From Dehalococcoidia bacterium (GTDB lineage Bacteria > Chloroflexota > Dehalococcoidia > Lucifugimonadales > UBA3495), in the NCBI GenBank assembly GCA_965203975.1, contig CBDBDT010000001.1, positions 712,029 through 776,028 of the forward strand: 64,000 nucleotides of DNA, given 5' to 3'. The notes under the pieces were generated by a model. The model had not been told where the DNA came from. It ran no database searches and worked only from the letters and a program-made list of their open reading frames with translations. Positions 1-56,723 of the stretch are shown piece by piece. A program made the translations under genes and the position numbers. Each line of letters starts with the position of its first letter. Positions within the stretch are counted from its first letter, which is position 1.

Positions 1-243
1 CGTCAAATCACCAATGCCGACCAGACCCCTCCGGCACAGGAGGGTTGCACAGTGCCTCAGCCGCTCTTTCACATCCAAAAACCCTGGTTCCTGACATTCT
101 ATTTCCCGTTATTCCGTCCCCTTCCTCCCATCTTCCCCGCTCAACCGCCGGTAAATCCCCCGCCCACTGATGCTGCTTCGGGTGTAGAATACGTCCGCAA
201 ACAACATCTGCCCTATTCTGGGCATCGCTTACGGTTCCGGAAC

Positions 244-1071
244 ATGGTCGGGAAACCATCCAAATACACACTGTTCTTCGTGGGTGCTGCCGTGGCCCTC
301 GCTTTGGTCGCAGCTTGCGCCATTCCGCGCGCCCATGCCCTCTACGTCGAAACCCTGCCCTCCGGCACGATCTCCGGGATACCCATTCCCCCCGAACAGT
401 ACCTATGGGACCCCAGCGAAGACTCCTTCTGGTGTCTCGGGTACATGGCGACCATCGTCGGCGGCCCCGGCGATGACATCCTTGAAGGCACTGACGGCCG
501 CGACGTGATCCACGGCCGCGGCGGTGATGACACCCTCCACGGCATGGGCGGCGATGACCTGATCTGCGGCGGCTCTGGGGATGACGTCATGTTCGGCGGG
601 GAGGGCAAGGACTTCATGCGCGGCCGCTCCGGCGACGACTTCATCCACGGCGGCCCCGGGGCGGATACCGTCCTCGCCGACCGCGGCAACGACGAGCTCG
701 TCGGCCATGACGGCCGCGACTTCCTCTCCGGCAGCTACGGAGATGACATAATCATCGGCGGCGACCTCCTCCTAAAAGACCATCAGAAACCCCGCCTGAC
801 CGGCCGTGATGTTCTCCTCGGCGGCGTGGGATCCGACATCATCATCGGCGACGACGGCGACGACGGAATCCTTGGCTTCGGGGCCTCGGACTTCATGGCC
901 GGTCTCGGCGGGAACGACACCATCTATGGCTATTCCGGCAACGACCTGCTCGATGGTGGCGAGGGAGTCGACGAGTGCAAGGGCGGCACCGGAGAGGACA
1001 CCGCCGCTGAATGCGAAATTGAGGAAGCCGTGGAGAGACGCGACGCCAGCCGCTTCCCCTTCCTCGACTGA
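244..1071 (+). CDS. secreted calcium-binding protein with hemolysin-type (RTX) GGxGxD repeats
   Basis: Track ORF 52..1071. The internal ATG at 244 gives a signal-peptide-like N-terminus (MVGKPSKYTLFFVGAAVALALVAACAIPRAHA). The rest is more than 15 tandem nonapeptide-like repeats (GGPGDDILEG, GRGGDDTLHG, GGSGDDVMFG...). The Pro-rich 52..243 extension looks non-coding. Confidence 0.7.
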   Translation: MVGKPSKYTLFFVGAAVALALVAACAIPRAHALYVETLPSGTISGIPIPPEQYLWDPSEDSFWCLGYMATIVGGPGDDILEGTDGRDVIHGRGGDDTLHGMGGDDLICGGSGDDVMFGGEGKDFMRGRSGDDFIHGGPGADTVLADRGNDELVGHDGRDFLSGSYGDDIIIGGDLLLKDHQKPRLTGRDVLLGGVGSDIIIGDDGDDGILGFGASDFMAGLGGNDTIYGYSGNDLLDGGEGVDECKGGTGEDTAAECEIEEAVERRDASRFPFLD

Positions 1072-1999: not shown

Positions 2000-2285
2000 T
2001 ACTGCGCGTTCCGTCAAGGGTCCCCGCCCCGAAAATCCGGGCCCGGCCTCATCGTCTCCCATGCCGCCCCCGGCCGGTCCGCTTACTGGCGCCAGGCCCC
2101 TTACGTAACCCGCCCAGCCTCAGTTACCATTCTTCTATGAATCTCCCAACCGCCCAGCATCCAGGGATAACCAGCCGGACGGCGGGCTGCAGACACCCGG
2201 GAAGACGCCCATGTCCTTGCAGTCCAGTGCAATTCGGGCCTTACCCGACCTTCCGACGGGACGGCTCTCGGCCATCGACCAAAAA

Positions 2286-2332
2286 TGCGACACTTTGACA
2301 CAAAATGACACGGTTTGGCACAAAAATGGCAC
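2286..2332 (+). promoter_or_regulatory. array of five helically phased AAATGRCAC-type direct repeats (putative regulator-binding array)
   Basis: TGcGACAC at 2286, TGACAC at 2296, TGACAC at 2306, TGGCAC at 2316, TGGCAC at 2327 (spacing 10,10,10,11 bp), plus a sixth TGGCAC at 2411. AT-rich patch about 200 bp upstream of the selenoprotein gene. A perfect TATAAT lies at 2474..2479. Confidence 0.35.
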
Positions 2333-2530
2333 ACCAATGCTCCGCTGGTGGAACCAATTGACCAGCCTTCTTGGGTATTTCACGCTCCAAAAGCGGGATT
2401 TCGCTCCAAATGGCACAAGTGTTGAATTTTCAGGAACCTTCGTTTGGCGCCCTGGAAAGTTTGACCCCTTGGGTATAATTCCCGAAAGTTCCATCCGAAT
2501 CTGGCGGCCCGCCGCCCCCGGAGGCATCCC

Positions 2531-3079
2531 ATGACCCTTACCGCCGTAGAACCCGCCGTCAAGCGAGTGACCTATCTCGACCCCACCGGCCACGTCTACA
2601 CCGAGGAGCGGCACATGTCCGGCCGCCTCTCAACCGTCCGCGGCTCCGTAGCCGCCCTCCTGGATAACGGCAACGACACCTCCAACTTCTTCTTCCAGGG
2701 CCTCGCCCAGGTCCTTCAGGAGGAATACGGCGTCGGCAAGGTCATCCTCGAGACCAAGTTCACCTCCACCAAGCCCGCCGACCCGGACACCATCAAGGGC
2801 ATGTCCGACGCCGCCGACTTCATGGTGGCCGGCGTCTGCCTTTGAGGGTCCTGCACGTCGGGCAGTATGCTCGACGGGATTCGCTTCGAGGAGACCGGCA
2901 AGCCAGCTGTGGTCGTCGCGACCGCCGGATTCGTCCGCCTTGCCAACTCCATCAAGGCGTCGCTGAAGCTGGAAGACCTGCCCCTCGTCGTCGTGAGCCA
3001 TCCTCTCGGCGACCCGGAAACCGCCCAGGCCAAGGCCTGCGAAGCCGCCGCCGAGATCGTTCAGGCCGTCTTGGGCTAG
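2531..3079 (+). CDS. U-G-S-C motif selenoprotein (TGA 2843..2845 read as selenocysteine)
   Basis: ORFs 2531..2845 and 2867..3079 share one frame and are separated only by the TGA plus 7 sense codons. GGAGG RBS 6 nt before ATG 2531, but no RBS before ATG 2867. Read-through gives ...FMVAGVCL-U-GSCTSGSMLDGIRFEETGKPAVVVATAGF... A SECIS-like hairpin follows. Confidence 0.7.
2857..2875 (+). promoter_or_regulatory. SECIS-like hairpin downstream of the in-frame TGA
   Basis: gtcgggc-agtat-gctcgac: a 7-bp stem (one G-U pair) with a 5-nt loop containing GU. It starts 12 nt after the TGA. A possible lower stem is tcc(2849)/gga(2877). Confidence 0.5.
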
Positions 3080-3102
3080 ACCCCGGCAATCACGGAGGAA
3101 GC

Positions 3103-4188
3103 ATGGTCACCGGCAACGCTACCGCACGCCTGACCGGGTTGGACTCGGTCCAGGGCGCCATTGACACCATCGAGCAATACTACGAGAACGGCTGGACCGA
3201 CGGCTTCCCTATAGTCCCGCCCACCGAGGATGCGGTCCTGCGGATGATCGAGGCCAGCGGCCGCAACGCCCTCGATGTCATCGGCGTCGTCCCGCCCCGT
3301 TACGGCGTCGCCACCATGGAGGCCGTCGCCGTGAACGCTGTCATGGCCGGCTGCAAGCCCGAGTACATGCCCGTCATCGTCGCCTCCGTCGAAGCCCTGT
3401 TGGATGAGCGCTTCGACCTCCACGGCCTCCAGGCTACCAGCGATCCTGCGGCCCCCATGGTCATCATCAGCGGTCCCGTTATCCAGCAGATCGGTGTCAA
3501 CCATGGCGCCAGCCTCTTCGGACCCGGCTACCGCGCCAACGCCACCATCGGCCGCACCCTCCGCCTCATCATGATTAACCTCGGCGGCGCTTACCCCGAC
3601 TCCGGCGACAAGTCCACCCTCGGCTCCCCCGCCAAGTACTCCTACTGCGTCGGCGTCGACGTTGACACTCCCTGGGCGCCCGTTCACACCGAGTTCGGCT
3701 TTGCCCCCGAAGATAGTTGCGTAATGGTCTACGCCGCCGACGCCCCTCGCGGCAACAACCCCGGCGGCTCCGGCAGTATGGAGTTCCCCCTCTGGATCCT
3801 CGCCGACTCCATGTCCAACCTCAACCACAACATCATCCACGGGGGCCACGCCGTCGTCGTCATCAGCCCCCTCATCGCCCACACCCTCCACCAGGAAGGC
3901 TGGACCAAGGATGAAGTGAAGTTCTACCTCTACGAGCGCGCCCGCGTTCCCGTGGAAAGGGTCCAGCGCTACAAGCAGCTTCGCTACGGCCGAACCCAAG
4001 AAGCTGGCAACCCCTACTACTGGCCCAGTTGGCTCAACGTGGATGAACCGGGGATAACCGTCCCTGTCGTCCGCGACCCCCGCAACTTCCTTGTCCTCGT
4101 CGCCGGCGACCCCGGCCGCTCCCGGTCCGCCTACTGCCCGGCCCGCCCCTACAACCCCCCCGTCATGAAAAAGGTGGAAATGCCCTGA
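3103..4188 (+). CDS. conserved hypothetical protein co-transcribed with the selenoprotein
   Basis: ATG 3103 is preceded by GGAGGA and lies 23 nt after the selenoprotein stop. 361 aa of non-repetitive, balanced composition (GWTDGFPIVPPTEDAVLRMIE..., GPGYRANATIGRTLRLIMINLGG). I cannot assign a family. The track ORF start at 2842 is an artefactual extension. Confidence 0.7.
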   Translation: MVTGNATARLTGLDSVQGAIDTIEQYYENGWTDGFPIVPPTEDAVLRMIEASGRNALDVIGVVPPRYGVATMEAVAVNAVMAGCKPEYMPVIVASVEALLDERFDLHGLQATSDPAAPMVIISGPVIQQIGVNHGASLFGPGYRANATIGRTLRLIMINLGGAYPDSGDKSTLGSPAKYSYCVGVDVDTPWAPVHTEFGFAPEDSCVMVYAADAPRGNNPGGSGSMEFPLWILADSMSNLNHNIIHGGHAVVVISPLIAHTLHQEGWTKDEVKFYLYERARVPVERVQRYKQLRYGRTQEAGNPYYWPSWLNVDEPGITVPVVRDPRNFLVLVAGDPGRSRSAYCPARPYNPPVMKKVEMP

Positions 4189-4206: not shown

Positions 4207-5244
4207 CTATCCTCCCGTCACGCCGCCGACCACAATCCCGGAAACATCCACTCCTGCTTCCGCCAGCAGGTTGCGGATGTGCAGCTCCGTCTCCCGGTAG
4301 GCCCCTTCCCCGATGTGGTGGAACCGGATGGTTCCCTGCTGGTCTATCAGGAATTTGTGCGGCCACCACCGGTTCTGATACGCCCTCCACGTCTGGAATC
4401 CATTGTCCATCGCCACCGCCCAAGTCACGTCCTGGTCGATCACCGCCTGCCGGACATTCTCCTCTTTGTGTTCAAACTGGAACTCCGGGGCATGGACTCC
4501 CACCACCACCAACCCCATCTCTCCGTACTTGTTGTGCCAGTCCCGGATGTAGGGCAGCGTCCGCTGGCAGTTGATGCAGGAATACGTCCAGAAATCGATC
4601 AGCACCACCTTGCCCCGTAGCTCCTCCATCGTCAGCGGATCGCTGTTGATCCACCGCACAATTCCCCGGAACTCCGGCGCGGTGTAGACCCCCGGCGGCG
4701 TCACAATCTCCGGCTTGTCCGCCTTAGCCTCAACAGGTGCCGTTGCTTCCGCGACAGTCGCCGGAGCGCTGTCCTTCGGTTCGACCGGCCCGCTCCGGGC
4801 CACCGGAACGTCCGCGGGAGTTGAAGAATCCTCCTCCGCCATCGCTTCCGGGGCTGCAGCGGACACAGTTGAGGTGGGAGCCGCAACAGCGGTTGGAGTC
4901 GGTCCAGTTACGCCCGCCTTCTGGTCTATCCCCAAAGGCTTTCCCTCATCTTTGGAGACTCCATTCAAAGGATCGGCGACTCCGCCAGCGGCGGCCCCGC
5001 TGGAGGCCGGAGAAGCGGTCGCCCGCACTCCGACCTGTACCGCAGGTTTTCCACCGGCTATGCCCCTGTCCCCCTCTGCTGCTGCGGCGGGTTCCGCAAG
5101 GGCAGCCTCTTTCGCCTCGGGTACCTCTTGGTCGACTTCAGTCGACGGACCGCAGGCCGCTGCAAATAGCACCACCCCGGCGGCCATCACCAAGCCCAGG
5201 ATACGAATCAACGCCAACGCGGTCCAAGGGATTGTTCCCGTCAT
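4207..5244 (-). CDS. membrane-anchored thioredoxin-fold thiol:disulfide oxidoreductase (redoxin/DipZ C-terminal-like)
   Basis: N-terminal TM or possible lipobox (LVMAAGVVLFAAAC), then a long Ala/Pro/Glu-rich linker. The C-terminal domain carries VVLIDFWTYSCINCQRTLPY (CxxC), VVGVHAPEF and WPHKFLID. Confidence 0.75.
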   Translation of the reverse strand: MTGTIPWTALALIRILGLVMAAGVVLFAAACGPSTEVDQEVPEAKEAALAEPAAAAEGDRGIAGGKPAVQVGVRATASPASSGAAAGGVADPLNGVSKDEGKPLGIDQKAGVTGPTPTAVAAPTSTVSAAAPEAMAEEDSSTPADVPVARSGPVEPKDSAPATVAEATAPVEAKADKPEIVTPPGVYTAPEFRGIVRWINSDPLTMEELRGKVVLIDFWTYSCINCQRTLPYIRDWHNKYGEMGLVVVGVHAPEFQFEHKEENVRQAVIDQDVTWAVAMDNGFQTWRAYQNRWWPHKFLIDQQGTIRFHHIGEGAYRETELHIRNLLAEAGVDVSGIVVGGVTGG

Positions 5245-5277: not shown

Positions 5278-6465
5278 CTAGTTGTCCGCCGGAACCGCCG
5301 CCTCCGCCGTTGCGAACTCCGGCATCACCTCCTTGGCAAACCACTCCAACTGCTCCAGAATGACGCTCTGCGGCGTCCCCACCGGTTGCCCCACGCTCAC
5401 CCGGTCCAGCCCCGGATACTGGGCCTCCAGCTCCTTCAGTTTCTCGATGATCACCTCCGGAGGCCCGCACAGGAACCCGCCCCTCTCCACTGCCCGCTCG
5501 ATGGTTGGCAACCCGGCCGTCGGCGCTCGCTTTGGGTCTCCCATCGCTTCTATCTGCTCATCGGAAAGGCTCCGCACCAGCCGCAGCGGGCCGAACATCT
5601 TCAGGTTTTCCTCGTAGTACTTCGCCGCTTCCTTAACTGCCTTCTCCTGCGTGTCGGCCAGCATGAAGTGATACCCGATGCTGAGGTTCTCCCCCGGAAG
5701 GGTATCCCGGCCCGCCCGGTGCTCCGCCTCGTTGTAGGCCATGATTACGTCTTCAATCGCCCCGCCTTCCGCCACGCCTCCGCCGATGATCCCCTTGATT
5801 CCGTGCTTGGCCATGAAGTCCAGCGCCCGCGGCGTCGCCCCCTGGATCGGCTGCCACGTCTCCACCGGCAGCGTCAGCGGTCGGGGGACCAGCGTAATCT
5901 CCTCCAGTTCATAACCCCGGTACGGCACCCGGGGCGGTACCGTGTAATGCTTCCCCTGGTGCGAGAAGGACCGCTCGTTGAACGACTTCAGGACCAGTTC
6001 CACCTGTTCCTCGAACAGATCCCGGTTCGCCGGTTGGTCCAGCAGCGGCGACCCGAAGGTCTCCACCTCCCGCGTGTGGTAGCCGCGTCCAACTCCGAAT
6101 ATCACCCGCCCCTTCGTCAGGATGTCCGCCGTCGCGAAGTCCTCAGCCAGGCGCAGCGGGTGCCACATCGGAGCAATGTTGAACCCGCACCCAAAGTTAA
6201 TCCGCTCCGTCAGGTGCGCCAGGTGGATGCTAAGCAGCAGGATATTCGGGATGCATTCGTACCCTTCCGGCTGGAAATGGTGCTCTGCCATCCAGAAAGT
6301 GTCGTACCCGTTGCGGTCCATCACCTGCGCGATCGCCAACGTTTTGTCAAAGCAGGTAGCCAGGTATTCGTCCGAGAACGAACGGTCATTGACCGCAGTT
6401 CCCCCGTATCCCACGTCCTCCATGTCAACGTGGCCTGCAAACAGGCTGTCAAATTTGGTAATCAT
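5278..6465 (-). CDS. LLM-class (luciferase-like) flavin-dependent oxidoreductase
   Basis: FWMAEHHFQPEGYE, GRVIFGVGRGYHTREVETFG; AGGGGGA RBS upstream of ATG 6465. Confidence 0.85.
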   Translation of the reverse strand: MITKFDSLFAGHVDMEDVGYGGTAVNDRSFSDEYLATCFDKTLAIAQVMDRNGYDTFWMAEHHFQPEGYECIPNILLLSIHLAHLTERINFGCGFNIAPMWHPLRLAEDFATADILTKGRVIFGVGRGYHTREVETFGSPLLDQPANRDLFEEQVELVLKSFNERSFSHQGKHYTVPPRVPYRGYELEEITLVPRPLTLPVETWQPIQGATPRALDFMAKHGIKGIIGGGVAEGGAIEDVIMAYNEAEHRAGRDTLPGENLSIGYHFMLADTQEKAVKEAAKYYEENLKMFGPLRLVRSLSDEQIEAMGDPKRAPTAGLPTIERAVERGGFLCGPPEVIIEKLKELEAQYPGLDRVSVGQPVGTPQSVILEQLEWFAKEVMPEFATAEAAVPADN

Positions 6466-52631: not shown

Positions 52632-54830
52632 CTAGTGGTGGAAACCTGTATCGAAGGCCCTGCCTCCCGCCGTAATCAGCAGGTCCGGCCGGTTGCCCCA
52701 GCGCCGCAGGAAACGCCCGAAGTTCTTCCGGCTCATCTCTTCCCGCTGGTTTTCGTCCAGCTCCTCCCACTGCCGGTGCTCATGGCGCACCAGCGGAAGG
52801 GTGCTGTCCGCCACGATCCGGTAACCCTGCTCCTTGAACTGGAAGCTGTAGTCAATGTCCAGGTTGCGGTAGAACCGGAACCCCTCGTTCATCAACCCCA
52901 CCTTCTGCACCGCTCCCCTCTCGAACGCCATGCAGTAGGCTTGGATCGCGTCTGCGTCTCCCCTTTCCACTTCCTCGTGGAAATGCCTCATATCGTCCGT
53001 CGACAAGCCGAACGGCCCGAATATCCCCACCGTTCCGTCGGACAACTGCTCCGTCACCGGCGTCAGCAGGTCCCCCACGATCTCGGTGGATGCGTCAACG
53101 ATGATGATGTACCGCCCCAGGCTCTGTTTCAGGCCAATGTTCTTGCCTGCGGCGTCCCCGATAACGTGGTCGCAGTGAAACACCCGAACGTCGTCGTTGT
53201 CCCTTTGGAAATCTTCCAGGAATTCTGCGGTGCCGTCCGTGGACCCATTGTCCACCACGATGATCTCCGCCGACCGGCCCCGAGACCATTCCAGCATGCT
53301 GTTTACACACCGCCGCACGTCGTCCACGTAATTGTACGCATTCAGGATGAACGAATAGTCGTACAAGGGCCCCTCGTCCAGCAGCGACCCGACTTCCCGC
53401 GACGACGAGACCGACGGCCACCGCTCCAGTTGCTGTTCCAGCGCCGTTTTCGGGCGTATCCGCGTCGTCGGCCCGATATCCGCCACCAAGTACCCCTGCG
53501 ACAGCACCTCGGATCGCAGCGTGTCCGCCGTCGGATACTCCGCCTGCTCCCTCAAGGCGCTCCGCCGCTCCAGGCTGGTCAACACAGCCTCTGGGACCTC
53601 GTAGTCCGCCGGCACCTTGTCCAGGTCCAGCCCGAACAGCCGGTCGAAGTCCCGCATCAGGTCCAGCTTGGCCTGCCCCGGCAGGTCCGACCTGATCATG
53701 CTCCACGTCAGCGACACCGCCCCCGGAAGGTTCAGGTCGTCGTTCGCCGTGTCCCAGAACCGTCGTCGCCACTCCTCCGTTTCCGGCGGCAGTTGCTCCA
53801 GTGCCGGCAGACCCTTCCACTCCCAGATCCGGTCACGCCAGCACGTCAACGCCCGCTCCGACGCCCGCAGCGAACCGAAGGTGAAATTCATCCTGTGCCG
53901 GTACCGCACCGTCAGGCAAAGGTAACGGAAGGAAAGCGGATCAAACCCCCGCTCCACCAGGTCGTCTATCAGGAAAACGTTCCCCGACGACTTGGCCATT
54001 TTGGCCCCGTCCGCCAGCAGGTGTTGGCCATGCACCCAGTAGTTGACGTGGACATCCCCAAACGCGCCTTCGCTCTGCGCGATCTCGTCCTCGTGGTGCG
54101 GGAAAATGTTGTCCACCCCGCCCGTGTGGATGTCGAACTTTTCCCCCAGGTACTTGCTCGCCATCGCCGAGCACTCGATGTGCCAGCCCGGGAACCCGTC
54201 TCCCCAGGGGCTTTCCCACTTCACATCCCGCCCCGGCTCGGCGGCTTTCCACAACGTGAAGTCCCTTGGGTCTCGCTTCAGCGGATCGGCTTCAACCCGC
54301 ACCCCTTCCAGCAGGTCCCCTCCAAAGTTCCTCGACAGTTTCCCGTACCCGGAGAAGTTCGGGACGTCGTAATAGACGTTCCCTCCCGATTCGTAGGCAT
54401 ACCCCGCCGCAAGCAGCTTCTCGACGATTTCAATCATCTCCGGAATATGCTGCGTCGCCCACGGAAACACCTGCGCCGGCAGGATGTTCACCCTTAGTTC
54501 GTCTCGGTAGAACTTGTCCGCGTAGTATTCGGCGATCTCGCCAATGGTCTTGCCCTCCGCCAGGGCGGCCAGGATCATCTTGTCCCCGCCCGTCTCCACC
54601 AACTCCTGCCGCATGTGTCCCACGTCGGTAATATTCTTGACGTGATAGACATCCACCCCTTGCGCCAGCAGCGACCGGCGGATCCAGTCCGCCATCATGT
54701 AGGTGCGCAGGTTCCCGATATGCGCATCCCTGTAAACCGTAGGCCCGCACGTATACATGCGGACCTTGCCTGGCTCTATCGGTTGGATCTCTTCGACCTG
54801 CTTGGTCAGGGTGTTATACAGTCGTAACAA
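52632..54830 (-). CDS. cysS: cysteine--tRNA ligase fused to a C-terminal family-2 glycosyltransferase domain
   Basis: TTG 54830 follows GGGGGAAG (LLRLYNTLT...). CysRS motifs: CGPTVY, AHIGNLRT (HIGH), WHIECS, FPHHEDE, KMAKSSGN (KMSKS). After about residue 470 comes SFILNAYN..., AEIIVVDNGSTDGT, GKNIGL, YIIIVDAS (GT-A fold). Confidence 0.85.
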   Translation of the reverse strand: MLRLYNTLTKQVEEIQPIEPGKVRMYTCGPTVYRDAHIGNLRTYMMADWIRRSLLAQGVDVYHVKNITDVGHMRQELVETGGDKMILAALAEGKTIGEIAEYYADKFYRDELRVNILPAQVFPWATQHIPEMIEIVEKLLAAGYAYESGGNVYYDVPNFSGYGKLSRNFGGDLLEGVRVEADPLKRDPRDFTLWKAAEPGRDVKWESPWGDGFPGWHIECSAMASKYLGEKFDIHTGGVDNIFPHHEDEIAQSEGAFGDVHVNYWVHGQHLLADGAKMAKSSGNVFLIDDLVERGFDPLSFRYLCLTVRYRHRMNFTFGSLRASERALTCWRDRIWEWKGLPALEQLPPETEEWRRRFWDTANDDLNLPGAVSLTWSMIRSDLPGQAKLDLMRDFDRLFGLDLDKVPADYEVPEAVLTSLERRSALREQAEYPTADTLRSEVLSQGYLVADIGPTTRIRPKTALEQQLERWPSVSSSREVGSLLDEGPLYDYSFILNAYNYVDDVRRCVNSMLEWSRGRSAEIIVVDNGSTDGTAEFLEDFQRDNDDVRVFHCDHVIGDAAGKNIGLKQSLGRYIIIVDASTEIVGDLLTPVTEQLSDGTVGIFGPFGLSTDDMRHFHEEVERGDADAIQAYCMAFERGAVQKVGLMNEGFRFYRNLDIDYSFQFKEQGYRIVADSTLPLVRHEHRQWEELDENQREEMSRKNFGRFLRRWGNRPDLLITAGGRAFDTGFHH

Positions 54831-54912
54831 GCTGCTTCCCCCAAGGCGGCGGATGTCCCGGCGGATTATCGTGCAGTTTACCACGCACCACCCCGCTTTG
54901 CATCACACCCGG

Positions 54913-55132: not shown

Positions 55133-55162
55133 GGGGGTTTGGGGGATGAATCCCCCAACGTC
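55133..55162 (+). repeat. REP-like 30-nt palindromic repeat, copy 2
   Basis: gggggtttgggggatgaatcccccaacgtc. It abuts the stop codon of the minus-strand gene 55161..55550. Confidence 0.75.
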
Positions 55163-55550
55163 ACCCCACCGTCTCAACCAGCACCGCCTCCCCTGAAACC
55201 ACCCCCATGAAAACCGTCGCATCCCCTTCCACCCTCCCGATTATCGTCACCGCGCTCGCCGGACGAATCTCCGCCCCCCTGCTCGCCGGAGTCGGCCCGA
55301 AGAAGATGCAGAATGCGTTCCCGGGAGGCCAGTACCCTAGGTCCCCCATCTCCACAACCTCCTTCCCGTCCTCCAGTTCCGCCTCCACCGGGATGGGGAA
55401 GTAAATCTCGTCACCCCACGTCCGCGCGGATCCGGAAATCGGCAGCGCCTCCGCCACCATCCTCCCCGTCCCGTTGTCCGCCAGTTCCCCCTCCGCCTGC
55501 ATTGCCCCCGCCGTTATGCGTATCCTCTGCCCCAAGAGCCTTCCCTCCAT
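55161..55550 (-). CDS. cyclophilin-like fold protein (no PPIase motifs evident)
   Basis: 129 aa. GELADNGTGRMVAEALP..., WGDEIYFPIP, GDLGYWPPGNAFCIFFG. GGTGGAG RBS. 18 nt downstream of the FAD oxidoreductase gene. Confidence 0.6.
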   Translation of the reverse strand: MEGRLLGQRIRITAGAMQAEGELADNGTGRMVAEALPISGSARTWGDEIYFPIPVEAELEDGKEVVEMGDLGYWPPGNAFCIFFGPTPASRGAEIRPASAVTIIGRVEGDATVFMGVVSGEAVLVETVG

Positions 55551-55568
55551 TCATCTCCACCGGCCGTA

Positions 55569-56723
55569 TCAGCCGCCCTGCCCTCTCCCCCGCCCCGCCG
55601 GAGCGAACCGGCTTGGGTCGCACGCCCCTATCGGCAGCGTCGTCTCCCCTTCGCTGATGAGGTCCGCCGTCGCCTTCCCGATCCCCGGCGCCAGCAGCAC
55701 TCCCTTCTTCCCCGCGCCCGTCGCCAGGAAAACGTTGTCCCACCCCGGCGCCTTCCCCACAATCGGCAGCCAGTCTGGCGTCACCGGCCGCAGGCACGCC
55801 GTATGCTGGACCAGCCATGCGTTGCCCACATTCGGCGCCAGCCTGACCGCCTTCTCCAAAATCGTCTGCCGCACCCCATCGCTGGGCTGGCGGTCAAACC
55901 CCTTCCACTCCTCCGTAGTCCCGCACCACACCTGCGCGTTCGGCTTCGGCGTCACCGAAACGCCGCCGCCGGACAAATCATGCCCCGGCTGCACGCCCGG
56001 TATATCCATCCGCAGCGTTTCCCCTTTTAGCGGGTCCACCGGAATCGAAATATCCAGCCAGGTCTCCGCCTCCCGCGCCCAGGGCCCGGTTGCCAGCACC
56101 AGCGACCCGCAAGCCAGCTTCCCGTCCGCCAGGATTACCCCCGTCACTCCGCCGCCGATTTCCAACCCGTTCACCGCCCCATTGCGGAAAATCGCCCCCT
56201 GTCCCTCTGCGGCCCTCTTCAGGGCCTGCGTCAGCTTGTAGCTGTCCAGTGCCGCGTTCCCCGTTAGTCGCACCGCCCTGCCGATCTCTGGAGAGAACAG
56301 CGGCTCGGCGGCCCGAGCTTCCTCCGCCGTCAACCACTCCGCCGTGAACTCCCTCGGCCCTGCCTCAAACAGTTCGTGGGATGTCTGCAGCGCCTCCATC
56401 TCCCCGTCGTCCATCGCGGCGTGGAGCAGGGAGACCACCCGGTACTCGTAGTCAATCCCCGATGCCTCCACCACCGCACCGCACATCTCCCGGTGCAGGT
56501 CATAGGATGCCATCGCCAGTGGAGCCAATGGCCCCGGAATCTGCGCTCCCTCCAGCGGATTCAGGCCGCCCGAGGAAAACCCCGAAGCCTGCGACCCAAT
56601 CCCTTCCCTTTCGATTACTGTCGCTCCGACGCCCGCCAGCGACAGGAAATACGCCGTCGCGCACCCGGCGACCCCGCCGCCAACGATCACCACGTCATTC
56701 CCGGATGTGTTTCCCTCGGCCAT
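55569..56723 (-). CDS. FAD-dependent oxidoreductase (DAO/glycine oxidase-like)
   Basis: DVVIVGGGVAGCATAYFLSLAG dinucleotide-binding motif and a DAO-type C-terminus (LATGAGKKGVLLAPGIG). Confidence 0.85.
   Translation of the reverse strand: MAEGNTSGNDVVIVGGGVAGCATAYFLSLAGVGATVIEREGIGSQASGFSSGGLNPLEGAQIPGPLAPLAMASYDLHREMCGAVVEASGIDYEYRVVSLLHAAMDDGEMEALQTSHELFEAGPREFTAEWLTAEEARAAEPLFSPEIGRAVRLTGNAALDSYKLTQALKRAAEGQGAIFRNGAVNGLEIGGGVTGVILADGKLACGSLVLATGPWAREAETWLDISIPVDPLKGETLRMDIPGVQPGHDLSGGGVSVTPKPNAQVWCGTTEEWKGFDRQPSDGVRQTILEKAVRLAPNVGNAWLVQHTACLRPVTPDWLPIVGKAPGWDNVFLATGAGKKGVLLAPGIGKATADLISEGETTLPIGACDPSRFAPAGRGRGQGG

What the first reader, a model, noticed from the sequence alone, without database searches (positions are those of the whole stretch)
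2531..3079. In-frame TGA joins two ORFs into one U-G-S-C selenoprotein with a SECIS-like hairpin
ORFs 2531..2845 and 2867..3079 are in the same frame, separated only by TGA (2843-2845) and seven sense codons. The downstream ATG has no Shine-Dalgarno, while ATG 2531 has GGAGG. Read-through yields ...DFMVAGVCL-U-GSCTSGSMLDG..., that is, Sec-Gly-Ser-Cys, a redox-type U..C pair. To my recollection RefSeq uses the name 'UGSC family (seleno)protein' for exactly this motif; this needs confirmation. A 7-bp hairpin with an AGUAU loop (2857..2875) starts 12 nt after the TGA, where bacterial SECIS elements sit. An ORF caller would split or truncate this gene.
Basis: partly seen in the sequence, partly recalled or inferred. 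Interest (0 to 1): 0.72.

Follow-up and report, generated by a model that had tools for sequence, protein, structure and literature searches.

The report
UGSC selenoprotein gene split by TGA
The two short ORFs are one gene for a known but uncharacterised selenoprotein family (UGSC), whose in-frame TGA is read as selenocysteine with the help of a conserved RNA hairpin; gene callers routinely truncate it.

Summary
ORFs 2531..2845 and 2867..3079 are one 182-residue gene with an in-frame TGA (2843-2845) giving ...VCL-U-GSC-TSGSMLDG.

Pfam PF24696 "UGSC family" matches across the junction (126 bits, cutoff 25). Full-length homologues that NCBI names "UGSC family (seleno)protein" place Cys opposite the TGA (CGSC). 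All 33 Dehalococcoidia/Chloroflexota relatives and all 80 metagenomic relatives keep TGA followed by an in-frame conserved domain.

The hairpin at 2856-2876 meets all four published bacterial SECIS constraints. Its synonymous sites are frozen (p=3e-5). Across 102 Sec-form sequences it shows compensatory pair changes, and it is degraded in Cys-form genes.

The family has been known since at least 2007-2008 (a major selenoprotein family in ocean metagenomes), so this is a new, divergent, mis-annotated member, not a new kind of thing.

Added here:
- An uncharacterised 361-aa partner gene (3103..4188) was next to, or fused with, every UGSC gene whose flanks were examined.
- The fold is flavodoxin/Rossmann-like, not thioredoxin-like.
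- There is weak but recurrent similarity to the Sec-bearing region of GrdB/PrdB reductase subunits.

Not testable here: whether the genome has selA/B/C/D.

The parts
2520..2524 (+). Shine-Dalgarno GGAGG, 6 nt upstream of the start codon
   Evidence: Read from sequence.
2531..3079 (+). Complete UGSC-family selenoprotein gene (182 residues with Sec at 105; stop TAG 3077-3079)
   Evidence: Pfam PF24696 at 126 bits, spanning residues 15-180. GC3 stays high in the same frame through the TGA. 33 of 33 and 80 of 80 relatives have the same architecture.
2843..2845 (+). UGA codon read as selenocysteine (residue 105)
   Evidence: TGA in 34 of 34 Dehalococcoidia sequences and 80 of 80 metagenomic relatives. 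Cys is aligned here in 18 of 19 full-length homologues.
2852..2854 (+). Codon for Cys108, the invariant second residue of the U-x-x-C motif (inferred resolving thiol)
   Evidence: Invariant column in alignments A1, A3 and A5. TGC and TGT are both used, so selection acts on the amino acid.
2856..2876 (+). SECIS-type hairpin. Core 7-bp stem 2858-2864 / 2868-2874, two further pairs in this sequence, apical loop G-U-A at 2865-2867 (G23, U24 counted from the U of UGA). The 'internal ATG' at 2867 is loop base A25 plus the first two bases of the 3' arm.
   Evidence: Meets all four published bSECIS constraints (criteria from PMC13188914). Synonymous entropy is 0 at TCG-GGC-AGT against a mean of 1.44 elsewhere, p=3e-5. 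Covariation on 102 sequences: 93.1% of cells paired, score 0.248 against 0.096 in shuffles, 0 of 500. The stem is intact in 91 of 95 Sec forms and 4 of 12 Cys forms.
2840..2891 (+). Possible extended lower stem (CUUUGAGG at 2840-2847 with CUUCGAGG at 2884-2891) enclosing the UGA. Tentative.
   Evidence: RNAalifold consensus of 30 Dehalococcoidia sequences. It is G-U rich, has only one-sided changes and 0 compensatory pairs, and is not conserved in wider Sec forms.
3094..3098 (+). Shine-Dalgarno GGAGG of the partner gene, 14 nt after the UGSC stop codon
   Evidence: Read from sequence.
3103..4188 (+). Conserved partner gene: 361-aa protein with no Pfam or NCBIfam family. Probably the 'Unknown_1' domain of Zhang & Gladyshev 2008, but not verified.
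   Evidence: Immediately downstream in 33 of 33 loci. Homologues (33-37% identity, E 1e-40 to 1e-57) are adjacent to 5 of 5 Cys-form UGSC genes in Actinomycetota. A Pfam-less protein of 297-380 aa adjoins each of the further Cys-form genes looked up. Fused to UGSC in P0194, P0220, P0229 and locus L041. AF2 pLDDT 84.6.

Best explanation
Region 2531..3079 is a single gene for a UGSC-family selenoprotein.

Recoding. During translation the UGA at 2843-2845 is decoded as selenocysteine rather than stop. The mRNA folds, 11-13 nt downstream, into a short hairpin (2856-2876) whose apical loop presents G23-U24. By analogy with characterised bacterial SECIS elements (inferred, not shown here), this hairpin recruits the Sec-specific elongation factor SelB carrying Sec-tRNASec to the ribosome.

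Product. The product is a 182-residue flavodoxin/Rossmann-like alpha/beta protein. The Sec105-Gly-Ser-Cys108 motif sits at the end of a beta-strand and the N-terminus of a helix, which is the classic geometry of a redox-active U/CxxC pair.

Function (inferred). It is co-transcribed with, and most likely forms a complex with, the product of the downstream gene 3103..4188. The proposed chemistry is as follows. The selenolate attacks a substrate or an oxidised group held by the partner. Cys108 then resolves the adduct into a selenenyl-sulfide, which a thiol system re-reduces. This is formally like the Sec-bearing PrdB/GrdB subunits working with their catalytic partners.

Shown here: one ORF, family membership, Cys/Sec alignment, conservation and covariation of the hairpin, and gene-pair linkage. 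Inferred: SelB dependence, complex formation and the chemistry.
For: One gene, translated through the TGA
- Pfam UGSC match across the junction.
- GC3 is continuous through the TGA.
- Codons +1 to +4 after the TGA show 4, 4, 2 and 4 synonymous variants and no amino-acid change in 34 sequences.
- 33 of 33 genome loci and 80 of 80 metagenome loci keep TGA plus an in-frame GSCTS... domain.
- Cys-form homologues are continuous proteins with CGSC at this spot.

SECIS
- 34 of 34 sequences meet all four bSECIS constraints (loop 3 nt, stem 7-9 bp, spacing 19 nt, dG -8.1 to -14.2).
- The loop A-G-U-R-U fits the N1-G-[G/U]-N-N2 pattern of PMC13188914.
- Synonymous entropy is 0 at TCG/GGC/AGT, although TCC is the dominant Ser codon at the other conserved Ser positions of the gene and AGT ends in T in a gene with GC3 of 0.84-0.89.
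- Pairs 19-29 (G-U/U-A) and 21-27 (C-G/G-C) covary, and a synonymous G-C to A-U swap occurs at pair 18-30.
- Stem intact in 91 of 95 Sec forms against 4 of 12 Cys forms (Fisher 6e-7). AGU:AGC is 91:1 in Sec forms against 0:10 in Cys forms (Fisher 5e-13).

Known family
- PMC2398784: 255 Sec against 21 Cys forms in GOS.
- PMC13188914: lists the UGSC-containing protein under NF041046.
- PMC5330540: tRNASec in a Dehalogenimonas (Dehalococcoidetes).

Partner
-.

Fold and GrdB/PrdB link
- AF2 pLDDT 93.5, five beta-alpha units, CGSC at the strand/helix junction.
- 32 of 43 members hit the GrdB model, best E 4.5e-7.
- Cys/Sec maps to about PrdB profile positions 146-151, and PrdB's Sec is U151 (PMC11229817).
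Against: - No tRNASec, selA, selB or selD was found in the window or in the 33 flanking loci. This only shows they are not nearby, but Sec-decoding capacity of this genome is unproven.
- No Rfam SECIS model matches.
- The single-sequence folding z-score is only -0.97.
- Part of the stem is imposed by the conserved peptide. Cys-form genes retain a partial stem and some would pass the generic bSECIS test, so that test discriminates poorly within this family.
- The covariation counts are inflated by relatedness and probably reflect only 2-3 independent switches. The switches also change amino acids.
- The NCBIfam equivalog score is below its cutoff.
- The GrdB/PrdB similarity is far below those families' cutoffs.
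- The partner is not detectably related to PrdA/GrdE (no Pfam hit). Its best fold match, class I fumarate hydratase, has TM of only 0.23-0.27.
Confidence: 0.92

Rival explanations
1. The TGA is a genuine stop. Two separate small proteins are made: 104 aa from ATG 2531, and 70 aa from ATG 2867, perhaps by translational coupling.
For: Public gene calls list the homologues as 104-106 aa proteins and separate 70-80 aa C-terminal fragments. An ATG or GTG exists at codon +8 in all 34 sequences. No Sec machinery was seen locally.
Against: The seven codons between the TGA and the ATG would be non-coding, yet they encode an invariant GSCTSGS with purely synonymous variation at +1 to +4. There is no SD before the ATG. 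Cys-form homologues are single continuous proteins with Cys at this column. The Pfam domain model spans the junction. The ATG itself lies inside the conserved hairpin.
Confidence: 0.02
2. The UGA is read through, but with a standard amino acid (Cys, Trp, Gly or Arg by near-cognate or suppressor decoding) rather than selenocysteine. The hairpin acts only as a generic read-through stimulator.
For: Sec machinery is not demonstrated for this genome. The hairpin matches no Rfam SECIS model. Cys at this site is functional in natural homologues.
Against: The family is an established selenoprotein family with Sec forms outnumbering Cys forms (PMC2398784). In Geodermatophilaceae whose tRNASec has a CUA anticodon, UGSC-motif selenoproteins are among the selenoproteins reported (PMC5330540), which ties the recoded site to tRNASec. 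The loop G-U and the 19-nt spacing are the SelB-type signature and are lost in Cys forms. Ordinary genes in the window, including the partner gene, end in TGA, so UGA is not generally reassigned.
Confidence: 0.04
3. A pseudogene or assembly error: a UGSC Cys-form gene with a TGC/TGT-to-TGA mutation or miscall.
For: A single-base change from TGC or TGT gives TGA.
Against: TGA is present at the identical position in 34 independent Dehalococcoidia assemblies and 80 metagenomic contigs, with purifying selection downstream.
Confidence: 0.005

Closest known systems
UGSC family (seleno)protein: Pfam PF24696, NCBIfam NF041046; 'UGSC-containing protein' of Zhang & Gladyshev (PMC1976440 2007; PMC2398784 2008)
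   Same: Same domain (126 bits), the same U/C-G-S-C motif at the same column, about 180 aa in length, Sec forms predominating over Cys forms, and the same association or fusion with an uncharacterised second domain.
   Different: This is a divergent Dehalococcoidia subclade. It has L-U-GSCTSGS[M/V]L instead of the commoner D-U/C-GSCTSWS[V/I]H, scores below the NF041046 equivalog cutoff (91.7 against 125), and is only 23-37% identical to the Cys forms. Its hairpin is the UCGGGCA/UGCUCGA variant rather than UCGUGGA/UCCACGA.
Bacterial SECIS element (consensus model of Zhang & Gladyshev 2005, as summarised in PMC13188914; the prototype is E. coli fdhF)
   Same: A stem-loop inside the coding region just 3' of the UGA, with a small apical loop starting G-U, 19 nt between the UGA and the loop, and adequate stability. 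From my own recollection of the fdhF literature (not checked here), the essential loop bases there are also numbered G23 and U24 from the U of UGA.
   Different: The sequence is unrelated to fdhF. There is no bulged U in the upper stem, the loop is only 3 nt (or 5 with the A-U pair open), and no Rfam SECIS family matches. SelB binding is untested.
Selenoprotein B subunits of glycine/sarcosine/betaine/D-proline reductases (GrdB, GrdF, GrdH, PrdB; TIGR01917, TIGR01918, TIGR04483, Pfam PF07355)
   Same: A UxxC motif; weak but recurrent HMM similarity over the Sec-containing C-terminal ~80 residues (32 of 43 members, best E 4.5e-7); the Sec/Cys maps to about the Sec position of PrdB (U151); and it is a small Sec subunit encoded beside a larger partner subunit.
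   Different: Scores are far below the family cutoffs (for example 11.9 against 65.45). The N-terminal ~340 residues of GrdB are absent. The partner is not a PrdA/GrdE-type pyruvoyl proprotein by sequence. The hosts are mostly not Stickland-fermenting clostridia, and no prdC/grdA/grdC-like genes were seen nearby.
Thioredoxin-fold CxxC/UxxC oxidoreductases (the fold guessed for UGSC in PMC2398784)
   Same: A U/CxxC motif at a strand-to-helix junction, which suggests redox chemistry.
   Different: The AF2 model of a Cys-form member (pLDDT 93.5) has five parallel beta-alpha units. Its best PDB matches are flavodoxin-like domains, lumazine synthase, small GTPases and NagZ domains (TM 0.38-0.48). 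No thioredoxin-fold protein appears among the top 50.

Membership tests
UGSC family (Pfam PF24696) | HMM score above the Pfam gathering threshold over the whole domain | tested here: met
   126 bits against a cutoff of 25, residues 15-180 on profile positions 2-170 of 172, with Cys substituted for U. With X at the site the score is 119 bits.
UGSC family (NCBIfam NF041046, equivalog) | Score at or above the curated equivalog cutoff of 125 bits | tested here: not met
   91.7 bits, E 4.2e-26, residues 41-179. Some Cys-form members that NCBI names as UGSC also score below the cutoff in my scan (P0383 at 110.4; P0304 at 123).
UGSC family | U/C-G-S-C motif at the conserved column, with Cys in non-Sec homologues | tested here: met
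   Column C105 is Cys in 18 of 19 homologues; G106 and C108 are invariant. The same holds in the 43-sequence alignment.
Selenoprotein gene (general) | Purifying selection on the amino-acid sequence continues in frame past the UGA | tested here: met
   GC3 is 0.84 in frame after the TGA. Only synonymous variation occurs at codons +1 to +4. A 77-89 aa conserved extension is present in 33 of 33 loci.
Bacterial SECIS (bSECIS consensus model) | Apical loop of 3-9 nt and upper stem of 4-16 bp | tested here: met
   Loop 3 nt (GUA), stem 9 bp here and 7-9 bp in all 34 sequences.
Bacterial SECIS (bSECIS consensus model) | G in the first two loop positions (usually G followed by G or U) | tested here: met
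   G23-U24 in 34 of 34 Dehalococcoidia sequences and 91 of 95 distinct Sec forms. Cys forms have G-C.
Bacterial SECIS (bSECIS consensus model) | 16-37 nt between the UGA and the apical loop; MFE of -7.5 kcal/mol or lower | tested here: met
   Spacing 19 nt; -14.2 kcal/mol here, with a range of -8.1 to -14.2.
Bacterial SECIS | Structure conserved by compensatory change | tested here: met
   4 of 9 pairs show both-sided changes. 87 cells have both sides changed against 37.4 in shuffles (0 of 500). Score 0.248 against 0.059 or less in slid registers. Caveat: few independent events, and they are coupled to amino-acid changes.
Bacterial SECIS | Match to a curated Rfam SECIS covariance model | tested here: not met
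   No hit at gathering thresholds over the window and none on the + strand at E up to 10 in 2780-2960.
Bacterial SECIS | Binds SelB and is required for Sec insertion | not testable with these tools
   Needs reporter or binding assays.
Sec-decoding organism | selA, selB, selC (tRNASec) and selD present in the genome | not testable with these tools
   None in the 64-kb window or in the 33 12-kb loci. tRNASec is reported in another member of the class (Dehalogenimonas, PMC5330540).
GrdB/PrdB 'selenoprotein B' family (TIGR01918 / PF07355) | Score above the family cutoff | tested here: not met
   TIGR01918 at 11.9 bits against 65.45; TIGR01917 at 13.2 against 602; no PF07355 hit.
GrdB/PrdB 'selenoprotein B' family | Sec in a UxxC motif at the equivalent position of the C-terminal region | tested here: inconclusive
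   32 of 43 members hit the GrdB model at about 330-415 of 431. Cys/Sec maps to about 341-351 (GrdB/GrdF) and 146-151 (PrdB, whose Sec is U151) by gap-free arithmetic. I could not see residue-level alignments.
GrdB/PrdB 'selenoprotein B' family | Adjacent pyruvoyl-proprotein partner (PrdA/GrdE) | tested here: not met
   The partner (3103..4188) has no Pfam or NCBIfam hit. Its best PDB fold match is class I fumarate hydratase at low TM.
Thioredoxin-fold oxidoreductase | Thioredoxin fold | tested here: not met
   The AF2 model of Cys-form P0304 has five beta-alpha units and flavodoxin-like PDB matches.

The most novel reading that the evidence does not exclude
The UGSC protein and its ever-present ~360-aa partner form a previously unrecognised two-subunit Sec/Cys-dependent enzyme. 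Its small subunit would be a stripped-down evolutionary relative of the GrdB/PrdB 'selenoprotein B' Sec domain. It would carry out a reductive, Stickland-reductase-like cleavage or redox reaction in Dehalococcoidia, Actinomycetota and other environmental (aquatic and soil) bacteria. [quoted passage not shown]
Probability: 0.25. Interest if true: 0.65.

Novelty: new member of a known kind. Interest (0 to 1): 0.3.

Why it matters
For annotation, this gene and its relatives are stored in public protein databases as 104-106 aa stubs plus orphan 70-80 aa fragments. All 33 Dehalococcoidia genome loci and all 80 metagenome loci examined have the same in-frame TGA architecture. Recognising the read-through restores a complete 182-aa protein and flags these lineages as selenium users.

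[quoted passage not shown] The strict linkage to one partner family, the non-thioredoxin fold and the GrdB/PrdB-like Sec region narrow the hypotheses and make the function directly testable.

The finding itself, that this is a UGSC selenoprotein with a SECIS element, is confirmation of a known kind and not a discovery.

Tried and rejected
- **Second selenoprotein at 55161..56723 (-).** The two ORFs share a frame, but two stops separate them (TGA, five codons, then another stop). They are separate genes: an FAD oxidoreductase-like protein and a small protein.
- **Systematic window scan.** A scan for other TGA read-through candidates found none.
- **Rfam.** No SECIS family hit at gathering or permissive thresholds.
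- **Sec machinery.** ARAGORN found no tRNASec in the window or the 33 loci. tblastn with E. coli SelA/SelB/SelD gave no hits. A Pfam survey of 20 large window genes found only housekeeping and metabolic genes.
- **Structure of the window protein.** I used the post-TGA fragment and a Cys-form homologue instead.
- **PDB by sequence.** Nothing significant for either the UGSC profile or the partner.
- **Pfam GRDB.** No hit among 20 UGSC members. The link appears only with the NCBIfam/TIGRFAM models.
- **Lower stem enclosing the UGA.** No compensatory support, so it stays tentative.
- **Invariant CTT before the TGA as a general context signal.** Rejected. Wider Sec forms mostly have GAT or GAC there.
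- **Identity of the partner with 'Unknown_1' of the 2008 paper.** The supplementary alignment panel is held only as an image.
- **Generic bSECIS test as a Sec-versus-Cys discriminator.** It is weak, because some Cys-form genes pass it. The loop G-U and full stem integrity discriminate better.
- **Sigma-70 promoter.** None found upstream of the gene.
Full report
**1. The observation**

The sequence is as described. ORF 2531..2845 ends in TGA (2843-2845). After seven sense codons an ATG at 2867 opens ORF 2867..3079 in the same frame. Read-through gives a 182-residue product...DFMVAGVCL-U-GSCTSGSMLDG...AVLG. GGAGG sits 6 nt upstream of ATG 2531, and nothing similar precedes ATG 2867.

The hairpin is present. 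ViennaRNA pairs 2856-2864 with 2868-2876 (loop GUA).

In this 62.7% GC window, real genes have GC3 of about 0.75-0.89. GC3 is 0.89 before the TGA and 0.84 after it in the same frame, against 0.68 and 0.47 in the other frames. This is the only in-frame TGA in the window with coding signal on both sides.

Taken alone, the fold is not significant (z = -0.97).

**2. Family**

With Cys in place of U, the protein matches Pfam PF24696 'UGSC family' at 126 bits (cutoff 25) over residues 15-180, so the match runs across the junction. NCBIfam NF041046 'UGSC family (seleno)protein' also matches (E 4e-26), but at 91.7 bits, below its equivalog cutoff of 125.

The literature already covers the family:
- It is listed in current reviews with function unknown (PMC13188914).

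**3. Does the 'homologues terminate here' refutation apply?**

The 120 closest database proteins are almost all 104-106 aa, and orphan fragments of about 70-76 aa match the downstream part. The DNA shows this is a gene-calling artefact.
- All 33 related loci from named genomes (all Dehalococcoidia/Chloroflexota MAGs; L001 is 99% identical) have TGA at the same codon. It is followed in frame by an invariant GSCTSGS and a conserved 77-89 aa domain, even where the N-terminal domain is only 52-60% identical.
- The four codons after the TGA show 4, 4, 2 and 4 synonymous variants and no replacement. The supposed start is GTG (Val) in 10 of 34 sequences.
- Nineteen full-length homologues of 156-215 aa align across the junction, with Cys opposite the TGA in 18 and Ser in one. 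The following residues are an invariant G, then S or A, then an invariant C.
- All 80 of the best metagenomic relatives also have TGA.

**4. The hairpin as a SECIS element**

The published bacterial SECIS model requires four things (PMC13188914, Fig. 2 legend):
- a 3-9 nt apical loop on a 4-16 bp stem;
- a G in the first two loop positions, usually in the pattern N1-G-[G/U]-N-N2;
- 16-37 nt between the UGA and the loop;
- MFE of -7.5 kcal/mol or lower.

All 34 Dehalococcoidia sequences meet all four: loop GUA or GUG, stem 7-9 bp, spacing 19 nt, and -8.1 to -14.2 kcal/mol. Only 1.7% of random window positions and 3.3% of UGA triplets do.

*Synonymous constraint.* Across a codon alignment of the whole gene, synonymous-codon entropy is 0 at TCG, GGC and AGT (2858-2866), 0.32 at CTC and 0.19 at GAC. 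The mean for the 63 other conserved 4- or 6-fold codons is 1.44 (permutation p = 3e-5). Codon bias does not explain this. TCC is the dominant Ser codon at the gene's other conserved Ser positions, and AGT ends in T in a gene with GC3 of 0.84-0.89.

*Covariation.* Within the 34 the stem is too invariant to covary. In the wider set the hairpin occurs in three variants:

| Peptide | 5' arm | 3' arm |
|---|---|---|
| SGS[M/V]L (this window) | UCGGGCA | UGCUCGA |
| SWS[V/I]H | UCGUGGA | UCCACGA |
| SCS[V/M]H | UCGUGCA | UGCACGA |

- Pair 19-29 switches between G-U and U-A.
- Pair 21-27 switches between C-G and G-C.
- Pair 18-30 shows a purely synonymous G-C to A-U swap (UCA...CAU).

On 102 distinct sequences, 93.1% of cells pair against 82.6% in shuffles. 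87 cells have both sides changed against 37.4. The covariation score is 0.248 against 0.096 in shuffles (0 of 500 reach it) and 0.059 or less in slid registers.

*Caveats.* The sequences are related, the independent switches are few, and they also change amino acids.

*Sec-versus-Cys control.* Twelve Cys-form genes keep part of the stem, because the peptide S-W-S-V-H-D itself encodes complementary codons.

| Feature | Sec forms | Cys forms | Fisher p |
|---|---|---|---|
| All seven core pairs intact | 91 of 95 | 4 of 12 | 6e-7 |
| Ser codon in the loop, AGU:AGC | 91:1 | 0:10 | 5e-13 |

*What is missing.* No Rfam SECIS family matches. Rfam's bacterial SECIS models were, as far as I recall, built for particular clades, so I give this little weight. 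SelB binding is inferred, not shown.

**5. Sec machinery**

The window holds no tRNA at all. There is no homologue of E. coli SelA, SelB or SelD in the window or the 33 loci. None appears among the 20 largest window genes, which are metH, fhs, pepN-like, aconitase-family, groEL, the his operon, cysS-like and similar.

This says nothing about the rest of the genome, which I could not reach. tRNASec is documented in Dehalogenimonas, another member of the class (PMC5330540). The maintenance of TGA plus a selected downstream domain in more than 110 independent sequences is itself strong evidence that the codon is decoded. UGA is not generally reassigned, because ordinary genes here, including the partner gene, end in TGA.

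**6. What the protein is and how it may work**

*Fold.* AlphaFold2 on the Cys-form homologue P0304 (33% identical over the full length, 42-sequence alignment) gives pLDDT 93.5. The model has five parallel beta-alpha units. CGSC lies at the end of strand 3 and the N-terminus of helix 103-118. The best PDB matches are flavodoxin-like domains, lumazine synthase, small GTPases and a NagZ domain, at TM 0.38-0.48. No thioredoxin-fold protein appears in the top 50, so the 'likely Trx-like fold' of the 2008 paper is not supported.

*Link to reductase selenoprotein B.* 32 of 43 family members weakly hit the glycine-reductase selenoprotein B model TIGR01917 (best E 4.5e-7). 17 hit GrdF, 15 hit TIGR01918, 11 hit GrdH and 5 hit PrdB, always in the C-terminal Sec region, while unrelated families are singletons. 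By coordinate arithmetic the Cys/Sec falls at about PrdB profile position 146-151, and PrdB's Sec is U151 (PMC11229817). All of these scores are far below the family cutoffs, so this is a lead on ancestry, not membership.

*The partner gene.* Gene 3103..4188 has its own GGAGG and starts 23 nt after the UGSC stop. It encodes a 361-aa protein with no Pfam or NCBIfam family and more than 5,000 homologues.
- It is immediately downstream in 33 of 33 loci.
- Homologues (33-37% identical) adjoin 5 of 5 Cys-form UGSC genes in Conexibacter, Embleya and an actinobacterial contig, in either order.
- A Pfam-less neighbour of 297-380 aa adjoins each further Cys-form gene looked up.
- Partner::UGSC fusions exist and are themselves selenoproteins (...TAIGD-TGA-GSCTSCSVHD...).
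- This is probably the 'UGSC/Unknown_1' fusion of PMC2398784, but I could not verify that.
- Its AF2 model (pLDDT 84.6) resembles class I Fe-S fumarate hydratases only loosely (E 5e-5, TM 0.23-0.27).
- It has two invariant cysteines, C84 and C182.

*Proposed mechanism (inferred).* A two-subunit enzyme in which the UGSC subunit supplies a Sec105/Cys108 redox pair to chemistry on the partner, formally like PrdB with PrdA.

**7. Verdict**

This is a correctly recognised, divergent and systematically mis-annotated member of a known selenoprotein family, with a well-supported SECIS hairpin.

Novelty is low for the finding itself. Moderate interest attaches to the strict partner linkage, the non-thioredoxin fold and the GrdB/PrdB-like Sec region. 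I did not see these stated in the papers I read, and they make the family's unknown function testable.

Noticed in passing
window 3103..4188 (+): A 361-aa protein with no Pfam or NCBIfam family but more than 5,000 homologues. It was adjacent to or fused with every UGSC gene whose flanks I examined. It has two invariant Cys (C84, C182) and motifs GWTDGLPxVPPT and RANATIGR. Its AF2 model loosely resembles class I Fe-S fumarate hydratase. It looks like an uncharacterised, widespread family.
   Followed up: partly
L036, L037, L039, L123-L129 (Cys-form UGSC genes): Cys-form genes keep a partial hairpin at the SECIS position (4 of 12 fully paired) but with AGC instead of AGU in the loop. This is either a fossil SECIS left after Sec-to-Cys conversion or a by-product of the conserved peptide SWSVHD.
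   Followed up: partly
L065, L111, L113 (metagenome Sec forms, motif AYGH-U-GSCTSGTVRD): A sub-type of Sec-form UGSC genes lacks the canonical hairpin (codon +7 is ACC, with no G-U loop at 19 nt). It may use a different SECIS structure.
   Followed up: no
window 2840..2842: The Leu codon just before the UGA is CTT in 34 of 34 Dehalococcoidia sequences, although CTG is the usual Leu codon. Wider Sec forms mostly have GAT or GAC (Asp) here, and some close metagenomic relatives have CTG. It may belong to a clade-specific lower stem (2840-2847 with 2884-2891), which has no compensatory support.
   Followed up: partly
window 5278..6465 (-): A luciferase-like (LLM-class) flavin monooxygenase gene. 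Homologues lie within the 6-kb flanks in 32 of 33 loci (29 of them downstream at 57% identity or more; 3 are only 29% identical and upstream). It may belong to the same pathway.
   Followed up: partly
window 4207..5244 (-): An AhpC/TSA-redoxin domain protein with a long Ala/Pro-rich N-terminal region and a CxxC (CINC) motif, convergent with the partner gene. It is found in only 4 of the closest loci, so it is probably not part of the module.
   Followed up: partly
window 52632..54884 (-): A 749-aa protein combining a class-I Cys-tRNA-synthetase catalytic domain with a family-2 glycosyltransferase domain. This is an unusual fusion, reminiscent of low-molecular-weight-thiol biosynthesis ligases (MshC-like; from memory).
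   Followed up: no
window 55161..56723 (-): Two ORFs in the same frame that look like a split gene, but two stops lie between them (TGA, five codons, then another stop). They are separate genes: an FAD-oxidoreductase-like protein and a small downstream protein.
   Followed up: yes
window 52..1071 (+): A protein rich in GGxGxD-type repeats (GGDDTLHGMGGDDLICGGSGDDVMFGG...). It looks like an RTX/hemolysin-type calcium-binding repeat protein. I did not run it against family libraries.
   Followed up: no
window 2000..2530: A ~530-nt stretch with no convincing coding ORF upstream of the UGSC gene. It contains TTGACC (2461) and TATAAT (2474), but only 7 nt apart, and the consensus scan found no sigma-70-type promoter.
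   Followed up: partly
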